A stretch of DNA of 64,000 nt from the human T2T-CHM13v2.0 reference genome, Homo sapiens (GCF_009914755.1 NC_060941.1); one strand, 5' to 3'. Shown: positions 42,692 through 63,037, numbered from the stretch's first letter. The notes: generated from the letters alone by a model not told the origin. Made by a program: numbers and translations.

Positions 42692-42787
42692 GCCAGTACT
42701 AAAGTGGAAGTGGACATGGAGAAAGCAGAAAGCCTGCAAGTGATGAGAGGAGACTTCCTTGCTTCTTTGGAGAATGATATCAAACCA
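42692..42787 (+). CDS. NSF: NSF-type exon 13 (96 bp), aa ~459-490, end of D1
   Basis: cttcttag|GCC... translates [32 protein letters not shown]|gtgagt, phase 0 at both ends. Confidence 0.96.
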
Positions 42788-43653
42788 GTGAGTATGCCCA
42801 TTGAGTGATATATAGGCCAAAAAGTAATGATAATAATAACTCAGGCGAAACGTAAGTGCCATTTACTCAGTATTATGGAAGGTTATAGCATATGCAGTTT
42901 CATAAAATGAGAAAATTTTAGTATTGGAAATGTTCAGTATGAGAAACATCTGTACAATAATCCTAGTGGCTGGTGATATTATTTACTGAAATATTTTCAT
43001 GATAGGAAGCTTACCATCTTGTAAGGCAGGCCATTCAATTTTGAGACTTTCCAGTTATTGTTTTACTTTATATTGAACTAGAACTAATTTTCTTATTGGT
43101 TCTTATACAATCCCAAGCTACAGAAACCTAACTTCAGTCCATCTTCCATATGTCAGTTATTAGGATATTTAAAATTAACTCTCATATCCTCCTCTGTCTC
43201 TCTCTCTCTCTCTCTTTCTCTTCCTTTCCTCAGCCTCTTCCAAGGCATCCCTTTTTCTTGCTCAGTACATTTAGTTTCTCTGACTACTATAGTTTCTAAG
43301 ACTTAAAAAGTGTCAGTTTTCTTAAAACGCATTCAAAATGGTCATAGTTGGAGCTTTAGAATACAGTTTAAGGTTATTAACCCATTTTCCTATAAAACAA
43401 CTACTAACATTTGAGTAACTTTTGTTTAGAGTCCTGTGTTAATACAAAAACAAATTGTAGAAAGTCCCAGTTCTTAAAGAAGTGTGTGCTTTTCTTTCTT
43501 AAATGGACCTCAGGTCCATTAAGATTAATCTTAATCTTTATGACACACTGTTATTAGTCTGTATTTTCATGGCGTGTAAAATAACATATGGTATATGTAG
43601 TTTTCTGGGACTTGCTATTTATTAAATATTTTATTACCAAGAGTCATCTATAT

Positions 43654-44465
43654 CAGGGATCCCCAACCCTCAGTACTGGTCCATGGCCCGTTAGGAACTG
43701 GGCCACACAGCAGGAGGTGAGCAGCAAGTGAGTGAGCCTCATCTGTATTTACAGCCACTCCCTATTGCTCGTGTTACCACCTGAGCTCCACCTCCTGTCA
43801 GATCTGTGGTGACATTAGATTCTCATATGAGTATGAACCCTATTGTGAACTGCATATCTGAGGGATCTAGATTGCACACTCCTTATGAGAATCTAATGCC
43901 TGATGATCTGTCACTGTCTCCCATCACCCCCAGATGGGACCATATAGTTGCAGGAAAACAAGCTCAGGGCTCCCACTGATGCTACATTATGGTGAGTTGT
44001 ATAATTAGTTCATTATATATTACAATGTAATAATAATAGAAATAAAGTGCACAATAAATGTAATGTGCTTGGGCTGGGCATGGTGGCTCGTGTCTGTAAT
44101 CCTAGCACTTTGGGAGGCTGAGGCGGGCGGATCACGAGGTCAGGAGTTCGAGACCAGCCTGACCAACATGGTGAAACCCCATCTCTACTAAAAATACAAA
44201 AATTAGCTGGATGTAGTGGTACGTGCCTGTAATCCCAGCTACTCACGAGGCTGAGGCAGGAGAATCGCTTGAACCCAGGAGGCAGAGGTTGCAGTGAGCC
44301 AAGATCGCACCACTGCACTCCAGCCTGGGTGACAGAACGAGACTCTGTCTCAAAAAAAAAAAAAATGTAACGCACTTGAAACATCCCGAAACCACCTCCT
44401 CCCCCAATGGAAAAATTATCTTCTATAAAACTGGTCCCCGATGCCACAAAGGTTGGGGACTGCTG
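43654..44465 (+). mobile_element. Full-length MER1A (hAT-Charlie) interrupted by an Alu at 44072-44365(+)
   Basis: TIRs cagggatccccaacc / ggttggggactgctg, 8-bp TSD atctatat/atgtatat, Alu TSD aaatgtaa(t/c)g. Confidence 0.88.
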
Positions 44466-44774
44466 ATGTATATGATTTCTTGTAGCTAGACATCATTCAT
44501 TTTCATGCTGAATAGCATTCCATTGTGTGAGTACCACAATTTATCTATTTTCCTGTCAATTGTGAATGTTACCAGTTTTTTGTTATTAAAAAAAGATTTG
44601 TCGTAAGAATTCTTGAATGAATTTCTCTTATTTAGGAATAAAATTATTAGGTTGTTGGATATATGAATGTCCCGCTTTAAAAAAACATTTCCCAGTGGTT
44701 GAACCAACACTGCCCCCAATACTGTGAAACATATCCTCTTGTTCTGTATCCTCTCCAACACTTGGTATTATCAG

Positions 44775-45057
44775 ATTTATTTTTTATTTATTTATTTTTT
44801 TTGAGATGGAGTCTCACTCTGTCGCCCAGGTTGGAGTGCAGTGGTGTGATCTCAGCTCACTGCAACCTCCATCTCCCGGGTTCAAGCAATTATCCTGCCT
44901 CAGCCTCCCGAGTAGCTGGGATTACAGGTGCTTGCCACCATGCTTGGCCGATTTTTGTATTTTTAGTAGAGACGGGGTTTCACCATGTTGGCTAGGCTGG
45001 TCTCGAACTCCTGACCTCAGGTGATCTGCCTGCCTCGGCTTTCCAAAGTACTGGGAT
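44775..45057 (-). mobile_element. Alu lacking its first ~27 nt
   Basis: Ends ...aaagtactgggat|ctcagcatc instead of ...gggattacaggcgtgagccaccgcgcccggcc. Confidence 0.88.
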
Positions 45058-45104
45058 CTCAGCATCTGTTTGTTTTTAAACCTTCCCTAGTCTGTGCTTA
45101 TGTG

Positions 45105-60469: not shown

Positions 60470-60597
60470 AATAAGTAAATAAATTGCTTTAATAAATTGA
60501 TTTAATACATTGATTTATTAATTAATAAATTTATTTAATACATTGATTTATTAATTAATAAATTTATTTAATAAATTGATTTATTAATTAACTAATT
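60470..60597. repeat. AT-rich minisatellite, 33-bp period, derived from an Alu tail
   Basis: ata(c/a)attgatttattaattaa recurs at 60505, 60538 and 60571. Confidence 0.88.
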
Positions 60598-62531
60598 TTG
60601 AGAGAGAGTCTTGCTCTGTCACCAGGCTGGAGTGCAGTGGCGTGATCTCGGCTCACTGCAACCTCCGCCTCCCGGGTTCAAGGCATTCTCCTGCCTCAGC
60701 CTCCTGAGTAGCTGGGATTACAGGCGCCCACCACCACACCCAGCTAATTTTTGTATTTTTAGTAGAGATGGGGTTTCACCATGTTGGCCAGGATGGTCTC
60801 GATCTCCTGACCTCGTGATCTGCCTGCCTTGGCCTCCCAAAGTGCTGGGATTACAAGTGTGAGCCACCCCACCCGGCCAGAACCTTTAAATTTAAAATTG
60901 TACAGTGTACTTCCTGCCAAGAAGCGTAGGAGGAAGAAGGAAGTAATGTTTTTCCAGTTTTCGGTTAAGAACTTGCTTTGTATTAAAATAGTCCTTCAAG
61001 TCTACAGCCATACCACCCTGAACGCGCCCAATCTCGTCTAAAATAGTCCTTCAAATATGTATCTCTTATAGCCTTCAGTTATCCCAACAAAATTATCTAA
61101 AGATTTGTTTATCTATTTATTATTATTTTTTAGAGACAGGGTCTTGCTCTGTTGCCCAGGCTAGAGTGCAGTAGCATGCTCATAGCTCATTGCAACCTCA
61201 AACTGCTGGGCTCAAGGGATCCTCCCACCTTAGCCTCCTGACTAGCCAGGACTACAGGCGTGTGCCACCACATGTGGCTAATTATTTTTTCTGGAGATGG
61301 GGTCTTGCTGTGTTGTCCTGCCTGGTCTCAAACTCCTGGCCTCAAGTGATCCTCTTCCCCCAGGATCCCAAGGTGCTGGAGTTATAGGCATGAGCCACCC
61401 ACCATGCCAAGTCATCATGTAAAGATTTACAGAAAGTTTTGTGTAAACATTGTCTTTTTTTTTTTTTTGAAGCAGAGTCTTGCCCTGTCGCGCAGGCTGG
61501 AGTGCAGTGGTGTGATCTCGGCTCACTGCAACCTCCACCTCCCAGGTTCAAGTGATTCTCCTGCCTGACACTCCTGGGTAGCTGGGATTACAGGCATGCA
61601 CCACCATGCCTGGCTAATCTTTGTATTTTTAGTAGAGATGGGGTTTCATTGTGTTGGTCAGGCCGGTCTCAAACTCCTGACCTCGTGATCCATCTGCCTT
61701 GGCCTCTGAAAGTGCTAGGATTACAGGCATGAGCAACTGCGCCCGGCCCATTCAGCCTTTTTTTTACTCGTAGAAGGGCTTCAGTGGAACAAGAGTCTAC
61801 TAGAGATACTAGAAAGGGTACTCAATTGATAACTGACGTTGAGATTTTTTTCTAGTATTCATGGCCCTCAGGCTTAGGGTTTGAAGTCAGAGGCAGGGCT
61901 GTAGGCTAATGGAGGGGAGTAGGCTTTCATGGATGATGCCCAGGGAGGAGCCAGATTATCTGTACCAAACCTTTTTTGTTTTTTTGAGACAGAGTCTTGC
62001 TCTGTCGCCCAGGCTGGAGTGCACCGGTGTGATCTCGGCTCACTGCAACCTCCACCTCCCAGGTTCAAGCAGTTCACCTCCCTCCTGCCCACCACCACAC
62101 TCAGCCAATTTTTAATTTTTAAAAAATTTTTTAGTAGAGACAGGGTTTCATCATGTTGCTCAGGCTGGTCTCAAACTCCTGACCTCAAGTGATCTGCCCA
62201 TCTTGGCCTCTCAAAGTACTGGGATTACAGATATGAGCCACTGTGCCTGGCCTCTTTTTGAAAATAGTCTTACTCTGTCACCCAGGCTGGAGTGCAGTGG
62301 AATGATCTCGGCTCACTGCAACCTCCGCCTCCCGGTTCAAGCTATTCTTGTGCCTCAGACTCCCAGGTAGCTGGGATTACAGGTGTGTGCCACCACACTC
62401 GGCTAATTTTTGTATTTTTAGGAGAGATGGGGTTTCACCACGTTGGCTAGGCTGTTCTTGAACTCCTGGCCTCAACCCGCCTTGGCATCCTAAAGTGCTG
62501 GGATTACAGGCATGGGCCACCGTGTCCAGCC
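60598..62531 (-). mobile_element. Antisense Alus 60598-60878, ~61105-61409, 61455-61749, 61972-62252, 62254-62531
   Basis: Consensus matches, all within the intron between RDM1-like exons 4 and 5. Confidence 0.88.
61000..61039 (+). pseudogene. 5S rRNA retropseudogene, first 40 nt only
   Basis: GTCTACAGCCATACCACCCTGAACGCGCCCAATCTCGTCT is the 5S 5' end with 2 CpG transitions. It is flanked by TSD AAAATAGTCCTTCAA at 60985-60999 and 61040-61054. Confidence 0.93.
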
Positions 62532-62890
62532 AACAAAGCTTTTTTTCAGTGAGTGATTCCAGCCCTTGATGCATAGGAGGGTGGGGTCCATAGGAGTGTA
62601 GCCTTAACTGATGAATTAAATCTCTGGGTGATGTGAGATATGTGCCAGGTTCTTGGCTTATGTCTCCCTCTAGTACTTTAGGAACTTCCCAACTAGATGG
62701 AGGCAGTAAAAATGGGCCCTGCCAGGATGTACCTATAACAGAGACGTTCAACCATACCCTTGTGCTGTCTGCCTTTAATCACGAAGATTATGAGCTAAGA
62801 TTCGTGGATGCATTTTTATTTTTTAACCAACATGTAGCAATGATCACTCAGATAGGCATCTTAAATCCATTAGTTTGGGTTGGATTTAAG

Positions 62891-62984
62891 ACCGTTGTCA
62901 TTCCTATGAAAGGGAAGATAGCCCAGATTGCTATTGAGAAGGCTTTGTCAGATGCATTCCAGAAACTGTTGATTGTGGTTCTAG
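62891..62984 (+). pseudogene. RDM1-like exon 5 (94 bp)
   Basis: tttaag|...MKGKIAQIAIEKALSDAFQKLLIVVL|gtaaaa versus RDM1 MKRKTAQKLAIQKALSDAFQKLLIVVL. It lies inside track ORF 62633..63028. Confidence 0.9.
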
Positions 62985-63031
62985 GTAAAACTTTCTTAAT
63001 CGTCGTTGAAGTACTTCAGTTTCAGTGAGCA

Positions 63032-63037
63032 AATAAA
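63032..63037 (+). terminator. Candidate polyadenylation signal AATAAA
   Basis: Lies 3 nt after the TGA (63026-63028) that closes ORF 62633..63028. Use is unproven. Confidence 0.3.

What the first reader, a model, noticed from the sequence alone, without database searches (positions are those of the whole stretch)
42692..63037. Open frame across the duplication junction: predicted NSF(N+D1)-RDM1 chimeric protein
Seen in sequence: NSF exon 13 ends in phase 0. RDM1-like exon 4 (60116-60277, AG/GT intact) is exactly 54 codons with no stop in phase 0: LQFSDLEERENEETMVPLPKQRLKFCALEVVLPSYDCRSLALAWWRSLWIRRRK. Splicing on to 62891 reads TVVIPMKGKIAQIAIEKALSDAFQKLLIVVL, back in the RDM1 frame. If the 62985 donor is ignored, the frame continues GKTFLIVVEVLQFQ to TGA (63026-63028) with AATAAA 3 nt later, so it could be an NMD-escaping last exon. 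The only stop-containing RDM1 exon (59593-59715) has lost its GT donor and is likely skipped. Established: the NSF N domain binds SNAP-SNARE, D1 is the motor, and D2 drives hexamerisation. Inference: if the upstream exons are intact, a 490+54+45 = 589-aa product could exist. It would replace D2 with an RDM1-derived tail ending in a hydrophobic stretch, and could modulate SNARE disassembly in a copy-number-dependent way. I recall NSFP1-LRRC37A2 read-through RNAs being reported. I do not know whether this frame has been described.
Basis: partly seen in the sequence, partly recalled or inferred. Interest (0 to 1): 0.9.

Follow-up and report, generated by a model that had tools for sequence, protein, structure and literature searches.

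The report
NSF pseudogene read-through, hypothetical RDM1 tail
This partial copy of the NSF gene has an intact 490-codon start and an open path into old RDM1 pseudogene exons, but published RNA data join its last exon to LRRC37A2 instead, so the proposed NSF-RDM1 hybrid is unproven and sits on an already described fusion.

Summary
NSF-like exon 13 (42692-42787) ends in phase 0. RDM1P2 pseudo-exon 4 (60116-60277) is 54 open codons with AG/GT. Pseudo-exon 5 (62891-62984) runs on to TGA 63026-28, with AATAAA at 63032-37. The sum is 589 aa. I also found all 13 NSF exons of this copy intact: 490 open codons, and only V361M and T476M differ from the parent NSF.

The open frame is not evidence of a product. 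It is inherited from RDM1 plus chance. In the same interval, 1054 of 11324 AG..GT segments of 150-250 nt are also open in phase 0.

Published RNA data send the exon 13 donor elsewhere, mainly to LRRC37A2 exon 2 (window-scale 73011). That gives NSF 1-490 plus 10 residues (PMC10512078, 986 junction reads; PMC12721320). In the PMC12721320 fusion tables the exon 13 donor motif occurs 20 times and the three RDM1P2 exon-4/5 motifs I searched 0 times.

The truncated-NSF read-through is already in print. The RDM1-tailed isoform is an unsupported in-silico chain. Interest is low.

The parts
12360..12559 (+). NSF-like exon 9 of the partial copy (D1 Walker A, GPPGCGKT)
   Evidence: AG/GT bounded with an open frame. 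Pfam AAA E=7.8e-16. Identical to the parent NSF exon.
30848..31013 (+). NSF-like exon 10; carries V361M (A at 30983, parent has G)
   Evidence: Pfam AAA E=7.6e-09.
31792..31866 (+). NSF-like exon 11
   Evidence: No difference from the parent.
32420..32607 (+). NSF-like exon 12 (D1 lid)
   Evidence: All 62 residues match NSF chains in the PDB apart from the start codon, which the tool reads as M. Pfam AAA_lid_3 E=1.4e-11.
42692..42787 (+). NSF-like exon 13, the last NSF exon of the copy. It ends in phase 0 at NSF residue 490, has donor CCA|gtgagt, and carries T476M (T at 42744, parent has C). Its documented splice partners lie OUTSIDE the window, in locus L003. The main one is the LRRC37A2 exon 2 acceptor at window-scale 73011 (10 codons, KFPRKLYFLH, then TGA at 73041-43). 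The rare one is the acceptor in front of LRRC37A2 coding exon 1 at window-scale 67965 (15 codons, then a stop).
   Evidence: The donor matches the published junction end AAACCA (PMC10512078; supplement of PMC12721320). The outside acceptors were located. PMC10512078 reports 986 junction reads and a 500-aa ORF. The PMC12721320 supplement rows list 140 samples for exon 2 and 3 samples for the exon 1 acceptor.
45057..45058 (.). End of homology to NSF intron 13: the duplication junction, 2.27 kb past exon 13 and inside a stretch NCBI masks as repeat (44746-45084)
   Evidence: A single megablast hit covers window 30000-45057 against parent chr17:47553534-47568602 at 99.708%. The whole copy is 99.723% identical over 118,675 columns. 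The masked interval is from the hub table.
59593..59715 (+). RDM1P2 pseudo-exon 3: in-frame stops, donor changed to AT
60116..60277 (+). RDM1P2 pseudo-exon 4: 162 nt, open in phase 0. It has deletions of 3, 3 and 1 nt relative to the 169-nt RDM1 exon. RefSeq lists only 60158-60277 (a transcript start) on + and an ARL17A exon 60131-60256 on -.
   Evidence: hub table. Acceptor has 9 of 18 pyrimidines at -20..-3. No Pfam or PDB match.
62891..63037 (+). RDM1P2 pseudo-exon 5 (62891-62984). Its acceptor AG is shifted by 1 nt, and it has deletions of 1 and 3 nt relative to the 99-nt RDM1 exon. It is followed by intronic read-through to TGA 63026-28 and AATAAA 63032-37. The AATAAA is inherited from RDM1 intron 5.

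Best explanation
The interval is the seam between two segmental duplications at 17q21.31.

- On the left is the human partial copy of NSF (NSFP1: exons 1-13, the N domain plus the D1 ATPase, no D2).
- On the right is the LRRC37A2/ARL17A duplicon. It carries an old, decayed, unprocessed RDM1 pseudogene (RDM1P2) in front of LRRC37A2.

Transcription from the NSF-type promoter reads through the seam. The only strong splice donor left at the end of the NSF part (exon 13, phase 0) is then joined mainly to the acceptor of LRRC37A2 exon 2, about 30 kb downstream. It skips the RDM1P2 pseudo-exons and LRRC37A2 exon 1. That mRNA encodes NSF residues 1-490 plus a 10-residue out-of-frame tail.

The RDM1P2 pseudo-exons 4 and 5 are open in the needed phase because most of their codons are still in the ancestral RDM1 frame and the rest escaped stops by chance. 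There is no evidence that they are joined to NSF exon 13.

Shown: the anatomy, the intact 490-codon frame, the frames of all routes, and the published junctions.
Inferred: that the RDM1P2 route is at most splicing noise, and that a D2-less product stays monomeric and has little effect on NSF function.
For: Anatomy:
- NSF homology is 99.72% over 118.7 kb and ends at window 45057.
- Exon 13 occurs only twice in the assembly, once in this copy and once in the parent.
- The LRRC37A2 exon 1 open frame is at 68332-70971 and exon 2 starts at 73011 on the same strand.

Intact 5' part:
- Of 329 differing alignment columns between copy and parent, only two fall in the 13 coding exons (V361M, T476M). None lies within 79 nt of an exon edge.
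- Exon chains with AG/GT edges give 490 codons without a stop.

Published splicing:
- PMC10512078 (passages): the junction is always AAACCA joined to LRRC37A2 exon 2, with 986 junction-crossing reads, PCR and Sanger validation, and a 500-aa ORF ending KFPRKLYFLH.
- PMC12721320 (passages): NSFP1-LRRC37A2 is validated by PacBio reads and its expression follows copy number. Ribo-seq reads were seen in one individual. It is described as fused out-of-frame and encoding a truncated NSF.
- Its supplement has four junction types for this donor. The exon 2 type is listed with 140 samples and the others with 3, 3 and 2.
- The window reproduces both tails: 10 and 15 codons.

Against use of the RDM1P2 exons:
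- The three RDM1P2 motifs occur 0 times in that supplement.
- Acceptor pyrimidine content is 9 of 18 for both pseudo-exons. It is 12-17 of 18 for 11 of the 12 NSF acceptors, and 12 and 13 for the two used LRRC37A2 acceptors.
- The pseudo-exon 5 acceptor AG is displaced by a G-to-A change.
- In real RDM1, exons 4 and 5 are frequently skipped (PMC2095821).
- RefSeq has no 60116-start exon (hub table).
Against: - I had no RNA reads of my own.
- The negative result rests on one published short-read fusion catalogue made with FusionCatcher. I believe (recalled) this tool reports pairs of annotated exons of different genes, so a junction into a pseudogene exon could have been filtered or never scored.
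- I did not see that table's header row, so my reading of the sample-count columns is inferred.
- That catalogue's rows carry brain sample labels. Testis, where LRRC37 genes are most active (recalled), was not covered.
- RefSeq does use the 60277 donor (exon 60158-60277), so part of pseudo-exon 4 is transcribed and spliced on the + strand in some model. If that model is 5'-incomplete, the 60116 acceptor could be real.
[quoted passage not shown] I could not see its Extended Data Fig. 3E or tables, so I cannot exclude that its isoform contains extra exons.
- The pyrimidine count is a crude measure of acceptor strength.
- One NSF acceptor (my exon 8 call) also scored 9 of 18. That boundary is uncertain.
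Confidence: 0.85

Rival explanations
1. Some NSFP1 read-through transcripts splice exon 13 to RDM1P2 pseudo-exon 4 and then pseudo-exon 5, and end at the AATAAA at 63032. This yields an NMD-resistant mRNA for a 589-aa NSF(N+D1) protein with an RDM1-derived tail. Variants of 554-614 aa arise if it splices on to LRRC37A2 acceptors. The protein would titrate SNAP-SNARE complexes in a copy-number-dependent way.
For: - All frames and signals needed are present.
- The upstream 490 codons are intact.
- Read-through transcription across this interval is documented.
- The 60277 donor is used in a RefSeq model (hub table).
- The AATAAA is conserved with the real RDM1 intron 5.
- RDM1 exon 5 was reported to hold a cytoplasmic retention signal (PMC2095821), so the tail would not be meaningless.
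Against: - No junction into pseudo-exon 4 or 5 appears in the one catalogue I could search: 0 occurrences against 20 for the donor.
- No such exon is in RefSeq (hub table).
- Both acceptors are weak and one is displaced.
- The parental exons are themselves often skipped.
- The open frame is no more than expected.
- 20 of the 85 exonic tail codons are frame-shifted, and a further 14 codons are intronic read-through.
- No Pfam or PDB match exists for either pseudo-exon.
- A product without D2 should not oligomerise (PMC2120109 abstract). From recall, N-domain binding to SNAP-SNARE depends on the avidity of the hexamer.
- Literature searches for RDM1P2 (2 papers, both incidental by title) and for LRRC37 with RDM1 (6 papers, listing only) found no description.
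Confidence: 0.07
2. Pseudo-exon 4 matters for other genes and not for NSF. It would serve as an alternative first or 5'-UTR exon of LRRC37A2-type transcripts on the + strand (60158-60277, spliced on from the 60277 donor). On the - strand it would serve as an internal exon of ARL17A isoforms (60131-60256). Its preservation would then reflect those uses.
For: - RefSeq lists exactly these two exons (hub table).
- The - strand has AG and GT at the right places, read from the + strand as CT at 60257-58 and AC at 60129-30.
- The - strand frame 1 is open for 19 codons and then stops.
- Copies at chr17:65.77 Mb and 46.42 Mb are 100% identical.
Against: - The 100% identity among copies is explained by recent duplication and needs no selection.
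- I could not see which transcripts contain these exons or how abundant they are.
- This reading is compatible with the best explanation rather than opposed to it.
Confidence: 0.5

Closest known systems
NSFP1-LRRC37A2 read-through fusion transcript. Sources: PMC10512078 (2023); PMC12721320 (2025), where it is reported by FusionCatcher as NSF-LRRC37A3; bioRxiv 10.64898/2026.08.05.743125.
   Same: The locus, the promoter, the exon 13 donor (AAACCA|gt), and the idea of a truncated NSF N+D1 open frame whose dose follows the gamma-duplication copy number are all the same. The window reproduces the published junction and the 10-residue tail.
   Different: The published forms go from exon 13 to LRRC37A2 exons (exon 2 mainly) and end after 10-15 extra codons. 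I found that route in none of the texts or tables I could read.
KANSL1-ARL17A/B and KANSL1-LRRC37A3 fusions of the same 17q21.31 duplication architecture (PMC12721320)
   Same: A partial gene duplicate is placed upstream of an LRRC37A/ARL17 duplicon, followed by read-through and capture by the same LRRC37A-type acceptors. In the supplement, the exon 2 start motif occurs 23 times with NSF, KANSL1 and BPTF as 5' partners.
   Different: The 5' gene differs. KANSL1-LRRC37A3 is reported as in-frame and full length, while the NSFP1 fusion is reported as out-of-frame.
RDM1 (RAD52 motif containing 1) and its splice isoforms (PMC2095821)
   Same: Pseudo-exons 4 and 5 are 87-90% identical to the exons at chr17:36.87 Mb. 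I take that locus to be the RDM1 gene, from recall of its position. The exon lengths of 169 and 99 nt agree with the paper's statement that skipping exon 4 shifts the frame and skipping exon 5 does not.
   Different: RDM1P2 has stops in exon 3, a lost exon 3 donor, a frameshift in exon 4, and a displaced acceptor plus a frameshift in exon 5. The annotation starts it at the exon-3-like piece.
Engineered NSF domain mutants (Whiteheart et al. 1994, PMC2120109)
   Same: A protein ending at residue 490 corresponds to N plus D1 without D2.
   Different: These were laboratory constructs. The abstract says altered-domain mutants could not support transport and that D2 is required for oligomerisation. 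The behaviour of a natural 500-aa product has not been measured. [quoted passage not shown]

Membership tests
NSF (type II AAA+ ATPase: N, D1, D2) | N domain and D1 ATPase coding exons present and open | tested here: met
   13 exons were found by tblastn with NSF-like proteins. The 490 codons are open. Only V361M and T476M differ from the parent. Pfam AAA and AAA_lid_3 match the in-window exons.
NSF (type II AAA+ ATPase: N, D1, D2) | D2 domain (oligomerisation) | tested here: not met
   Homology to the parent stops at window 45057, 2.27 kb after exon 13. Exon 13 ends at residue 490. No further NSF exon follows on this copy. tblastn with P0030, which reaches residue 593, gives no hit beyond exon 13 in the copy.
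NSFP1-LRRC37A2 read-through fusion locus | Partial NSF copy upstream of LRRC37A2 on the same strand, with the published donor and acceptor sequences | tested here: met
   Donor ...ATCAAACCA|gtgagt at 42787. Acceptor ...cacag|AAATTTCCAAGG at 73011. They match the junction strings in the supplement of PMC12721320 and the tail peptide of PMC10512078.
NSFP1-LRRC37A2 read-through fusion locus | RNA from this very haplotype showing the junction | not testable with these tools
   No transcript data are on hand. The evidence comes from other individuals, in print.
RDM1 protein family | Continuous RDM1 reading frame | tested here: not met
   Stops in pseudo-exon 3, a 1-nt deletion in pseudo-exon 4, and a shifted acceptor and 1-nt deletion in pseudo-exon 5.
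RDM1 protein family | RRM-coding 5' exons present | not tested
   The hub table starts RDM1P2 at 59593 (exon-3-like). I held no RDM1 protein to search with. Pfam finds nothing in pseudo-exons 4 and 5.
   The start of pseudo-exon 4 occurs 0 times in the fusion tables of PMC12721320, against 20 for the exon 13 donor motif. That catalogue may not score pseudogene exons, and it covers brain only.
   The signal is present and inherited from RDM1 intron 5. No 3'-end data are on hand.

The most novel reading that the evidence does not exclude
A minor, perhaps tissue-restricted NSFP1 isoform includes RDM1P2 pseudo-exons 4 and 5 and ends at the inherited AATAAA. Its stop would lie in the last exon, so it would escape nonsense-mediated decay, unlike the main exon 13 to LRRC37A2 exon 2 form. 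It could then be the most stable protein-coding output of the duplication. The product would be a 589-aa monomeric N+D1 NSF carrying the RDM1 exon-5-derived segment, which the RDM1 literature links to cytoplasmic retention. Its dose would follow the gamma-duplication copy number that is associated with PSP risk and cocaine dependence.
Probability: 0.03. Interest if true: 0.6.

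Novelty: already known. Interest (0 to 1): 0.15.

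Why it matters
The copy number of this duplication varies between people. It has been linked to cocaine dependence (PMC4976312) and to progressive supranuclear palsy risk (PMC12089919), and NSFP1 RNA rises with copy number. [quoted passage not shown]

This check contributes three things:
- In T2T-CHM13 the copy's 490 codons are intact.
- The copy carries two paralog-specific residues (M361, M476) that could tell its reads and peptides from those of NSF.
- The RDM1-tailed frame needs direct RNA evidence before anyone invests in it.

If that isoform were real and NMD-resistant, it would be the better candidate for a stable product. On present evidence that is unlikely.

Tried and rejected
Its Supplementary Table 5 and Extended Data Fig. 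3E may show the exact exon chain of its NSFP1-LRRC37A2 ORF, and I did not see them.
- PDB and Pfam searches with the pseudo-exon 4 and 5 translations gave nothing, so nothing can be said about a fold for the tail.
- I did not fold or dock the chimera. The joined sequence is not something I could hand to the tools, and the answer would not bear on whether it exists.
- I considered whether adding RDM1P2 exons could put NSF in frame with the LRRC37A2 coding sequence. It cannot. Exon 4 alone keeps phase 0 and gives the same 10-codon tail, for 554 aa. Exons 4+5 shift by one base and stop after 39 further codons in exon 2, for 614 aa. The LRRC37A2 frame would need two extra bases.
- I considered obligatory inclusion of the stop-bearing pseudo-exon 3 and rejected it. 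Its donor is AT.
- I considered a defect in the upstream exons and rejected it.
- The splice-site strength measure is only a pyrimidine count. No MaxEnt-type model was on hand.
- Literature searches: 'NSFP1' (53 papers; passages of 6 read), 'RDM1P2' (2, listing only), 'LRRC37'+'RDM1' (6, listing only) and 'NSF'+'17q21.31'+'partial duplication'+'truncated' (6 papers, 5 listed). None describes an NSF-RDM1P2 frame. Subscription-only papers are not covered.
Those two outside-window acceptors are now described under the exon 13 part.

Full report
**1. The observation**

- NSF-like exon 13 (42692-42787) lies between AG and GTGAGT. It reads ...[13 protein letters not shown] in frame 0 and ends in phase 0.
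- Its translation aligns to residues 462-493 of the 747-residue NSF chains in the PDB with 31 of 32 identical. After the 3-residue tag, this is native residue 490.
- RDM1P2 pseudo-exon 4 (60116-60277) has AG and GT and is 54 codons without a stop in phase 0.
- Pseudo-exon 5 (62891-62984, 94 nt) has AG and GT.
- Reading through its donor reaches TGA at 63026-28, and AATAAA lies at 63032-37.
- Pseudo-exon 3 (59593-59715) has stops and an AT in place of the GT donor.
- The sum 490 + 54 + 45 = 589 aa is right.

**2. The upstream exons**

I fetched the DNA upstream of the window and the parent NSF gene from the same assembly.
- The copy aligns to the parent over 118,675 columns at 99.723%, with 164 mismatches and 52 gap openings.
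- The alignment ends at window 45057, 2.27 kb into intron 13, inside a stretch NCBI masks as repeat (hub table).
- Using NSF-like proteins returned by a library search with exon 12, tblastn placed exons 2-13.
- Exon 1 (four codons, then GTGAGT) was read directly.
- Of 329 differing alignment columns, two fall in coding exons. A at 30983 against G gives V361M. T at 42744 against C gives T476M.
- The nearest other difference to any exon edge is 79 nt away.
- Exon chains with AG/GT edges give 490 codons and no stop.
The N+D1 frame of this copy is intact.
- Exon 13 occurs only twice in the assembly, in this copy and in the parent.

**3. The RDM1-like exons**

The exon-4-like and exon-5-like pieces each occur five times on chr17.
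- Three copies are 100% identical: here, at 65.77 Mb and at 46.42 Mb.
- Two are diverged, at 86-90%: at 69.03 Mb and at 36.87 Mb.
- I take the 36.87 Mb copy to be the RDM1 gene, from recall of its position. Its exon lengths of 169 and 99 nt fit the statement in PMC2095821 that skipping exon 4 shifts the frame and skipping exon 5 does not.
- Against that copy, pseudo-exon 4 has deletions of 3, 3 and 1 nt.
- Pseudo-exon 5 has its acceptor AG moved by one base through a G-to-A change, plus deletions of 1 and 3 nt.
- These changes happen to cancel.
- By my count from these alignments, about 20 of the 85 exonic tail codons are out of the RDM1 frame. A further 14 codons are intronic read-through.
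- The AATAAA after exon 5 is also present in the RDM1 intron, with TAA where the pseudogene has TGA. It is therefore inherited and not new.
- Neither pseudo-exon matches a Pfam family or a PDB chain.

**4. Is the open frame more than chance?**

No.
- At the local stop-triplet frequency (0.051), 20 frame-shifted codons stay open with probability 0.35.
- In the interval between the exon 13 donor and the documented acceptor (42788-73010), 1054 of 11324 AG..GT-bounded segments of 150-250 nt are open in phase 0.
- The identical copies elsewhere show that the frame is a property of the duplicon and not of its junction with NSF.

**5. Where the exon 13 donor really goes**

Three papers bear on this.

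PMC10512078 (passages read):
- It mapped the NSFP1-LRRC37A2 junction to exon 13 and LRRC37A2 exon 2.
- The breakpoint was always the same, with 986 junction-crossing reads and PCR and Sanger validation.
- It derived a 500-aa ORF ending KFPRKLYFLH.

PMC12721320 (passages and supplement):
- It validated the fusion with PacBio reads and showed that its level follows copy number.
- It saw Ribo-seq reads in one individual.
- It calls the fusion out-of-frame, encoding a truncated NSF.
- Its fusion table lists four junction types for this donor. The LRRC37A-type exon 2 junction has 140 samples and 51.5% on that row.
- An acceptor in front of coding exon 1 has 3 samples. Two deeper exons have 3 and 2 samples.
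- I did not see the header row, so the meaning of these columns is my reading.

In the DNA:
- Exon 2 starts at window-scale 73011 and the other acceptor at 67965.
- In phase 0 they give 10 and 15 codons before a stop.
- In that whole supplement the exon 13 donor motif occurs 20 times and the exon 2 start 23 times, with NSF, KANSL1 and BPTF as partners.
- The start of pseudo-exon 4, its donor side and the start of pseudo-exon 5 each occur 0 times.
- RefSeq's LRRC37A2 models contain the NSF exons, which is its way of showing the read-through. In the RDM1P2 region they list only 60158-60277. That exon is preceded by CC and must be a transcript start or a 5'-incomplete model (hub table).

**6. Why the RDM1P2 exons are poor candidates**
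- Both acceptors have 9 of 18 pyrimidines at -20..-3.
- 11 of the 12 NSF acceptors have 12-17 of 18. My exon 8 boundary, which is uncertain, also gives 9.
- The two LRRC37A2 acceptors that are used have 12 and 13. This is a crude measure.
- In the functional RDM1 gene, exons 4 and 5 are cassette exons skipped in several isoforms. One isoform lacking exon 4 is among the most abundant (PMC2095821).

**7. Limits of the negative evidence**
- I had no reads of my own.
- The catalogue is short-read and its rows carry brain sample labels.
- It was made with a tool that, as I recall, scores annotated exon pairs. It could miss a pseudogene exon.
- By my frame count no combination of pseudo-exons 4 and 5 puts NSF in the LRRC37A2 frame. 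I do not know what chain they mean; it may simply be the 10-codon extension.

**8. Function**
- A product ending at residue 490 has N and D1 but no D2.
- The abstract of PMC2120109 says D2 is required for oligomerisation and that domain-altered mutants did not support transport.
- I infer that any product of this copy, with either tail, stays outside NSF rings and cannot poison them. Whether a monomer can soak up SNAP-SNARE complexes is untested.
- A review states that the effect of the duplication on protein stability is unknown (PMC11138017).
- The main isoform has its stop 12 exons before the end and should be an NMD target (inference).

**9. Verdict**
- What is here is the known NSFP1-LRRC37A2 read-through locus plus a decayed RDM1 pseudogene.
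- The truncated-NSF frame across the junction is already in print.
- The RDM1-tailed protein is a correct piece of frame arithmetic without transcript support.
- I put about 0.07 on it being a real isoform of any weight and about 0.03 on it giving a stable protein that matters.
- Searches for 'RDM1P2', for 'LRRC37' with 'RDM1', and for 'NSFP1' found no description of this frame.

Noticed in passing
window 30983 and 42744: The NSFP1 copy in this assembly differs from the parent NSF in its coding exons only by V361M (A against G) and T476M (T against C). The forward primer printed in PMC10512078 carries the parental C at the second site. That change may therefore be specific to some NSFP1 haplotypes. 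Both sites could serve to tell copy-derived reads and peptides from NSF.
   Followed up: partly
window 60131-60256, minus strand: RefSeq places an ARL17A exon antisense to 126 of the 162 nt of RDM1P2 pseudo-exon 4. AG and GT are present on the minus strand, and frame 1 reads 19 codons before a stop. So one decayed pseudo-exon is annotated as exonic on both strands.
   Followed up: partly
window 60158-60277: RefSeq lists this as an exon of an alternative LRRC37A2 transcript. It starts exactly at an ATG and is preceded by CC, so it is a transcript start or a 5'-incomplete model. If the model is incomplete, the 60116 acceptor might be used by some upstream exon.
   Followed up: no
window 45057 (masked repeat 44746-45084): Homology to NSF intron 13 ends inside a stretch that NCBI masks as repeat, with another masked stretch starting at 45100. 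This would fit a repeat-mediated duplication breakpoint. The repeat family was not identified.
   Followed up: no
L003, window-scale 73011 (outside the window): The LRRC37A-type exon 2 acceptor is a recurrent capture site. In the supplement of PMC12721320, its start follows donors of NSF, KANSL1 and BPTF (23 occurrences of the motif).
   Followed up: partly
supplement of PMC12721320, NSF-LRRC37A3 rows: The table labels the main exon 13 to exon 2 junction 'in-frame', while the paper's text calls the fusion out-of-frame. My translation gives a stop after 10 codons, in agreement with the text and with PMC10512078.
   Followed up: yes
window 63032-63037 and chr17:36.87 Mb (L036): The AATAAA just after exon 5 is conserved between RDM1P2 and the RDM1-like copy at 36.87 Mb, about 45 nt into the intron. 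This raises the question of whether RDM1 itself has a short isoform ending there. PMC2095821 does not mention polyadenylation (0 occurrences).
   Followed up: no
chr17:65.77 Mb and 46.42 Mb (L031, L033): RDM1P pseudo-exons 4 and 5 are 100% identical at three chr17 sites (one base differs in exon 4 of the 46.42 Mb copy in alignment A1). Short reads from these exons therefore cannot be assigned to one locus.
   Followed up: partly
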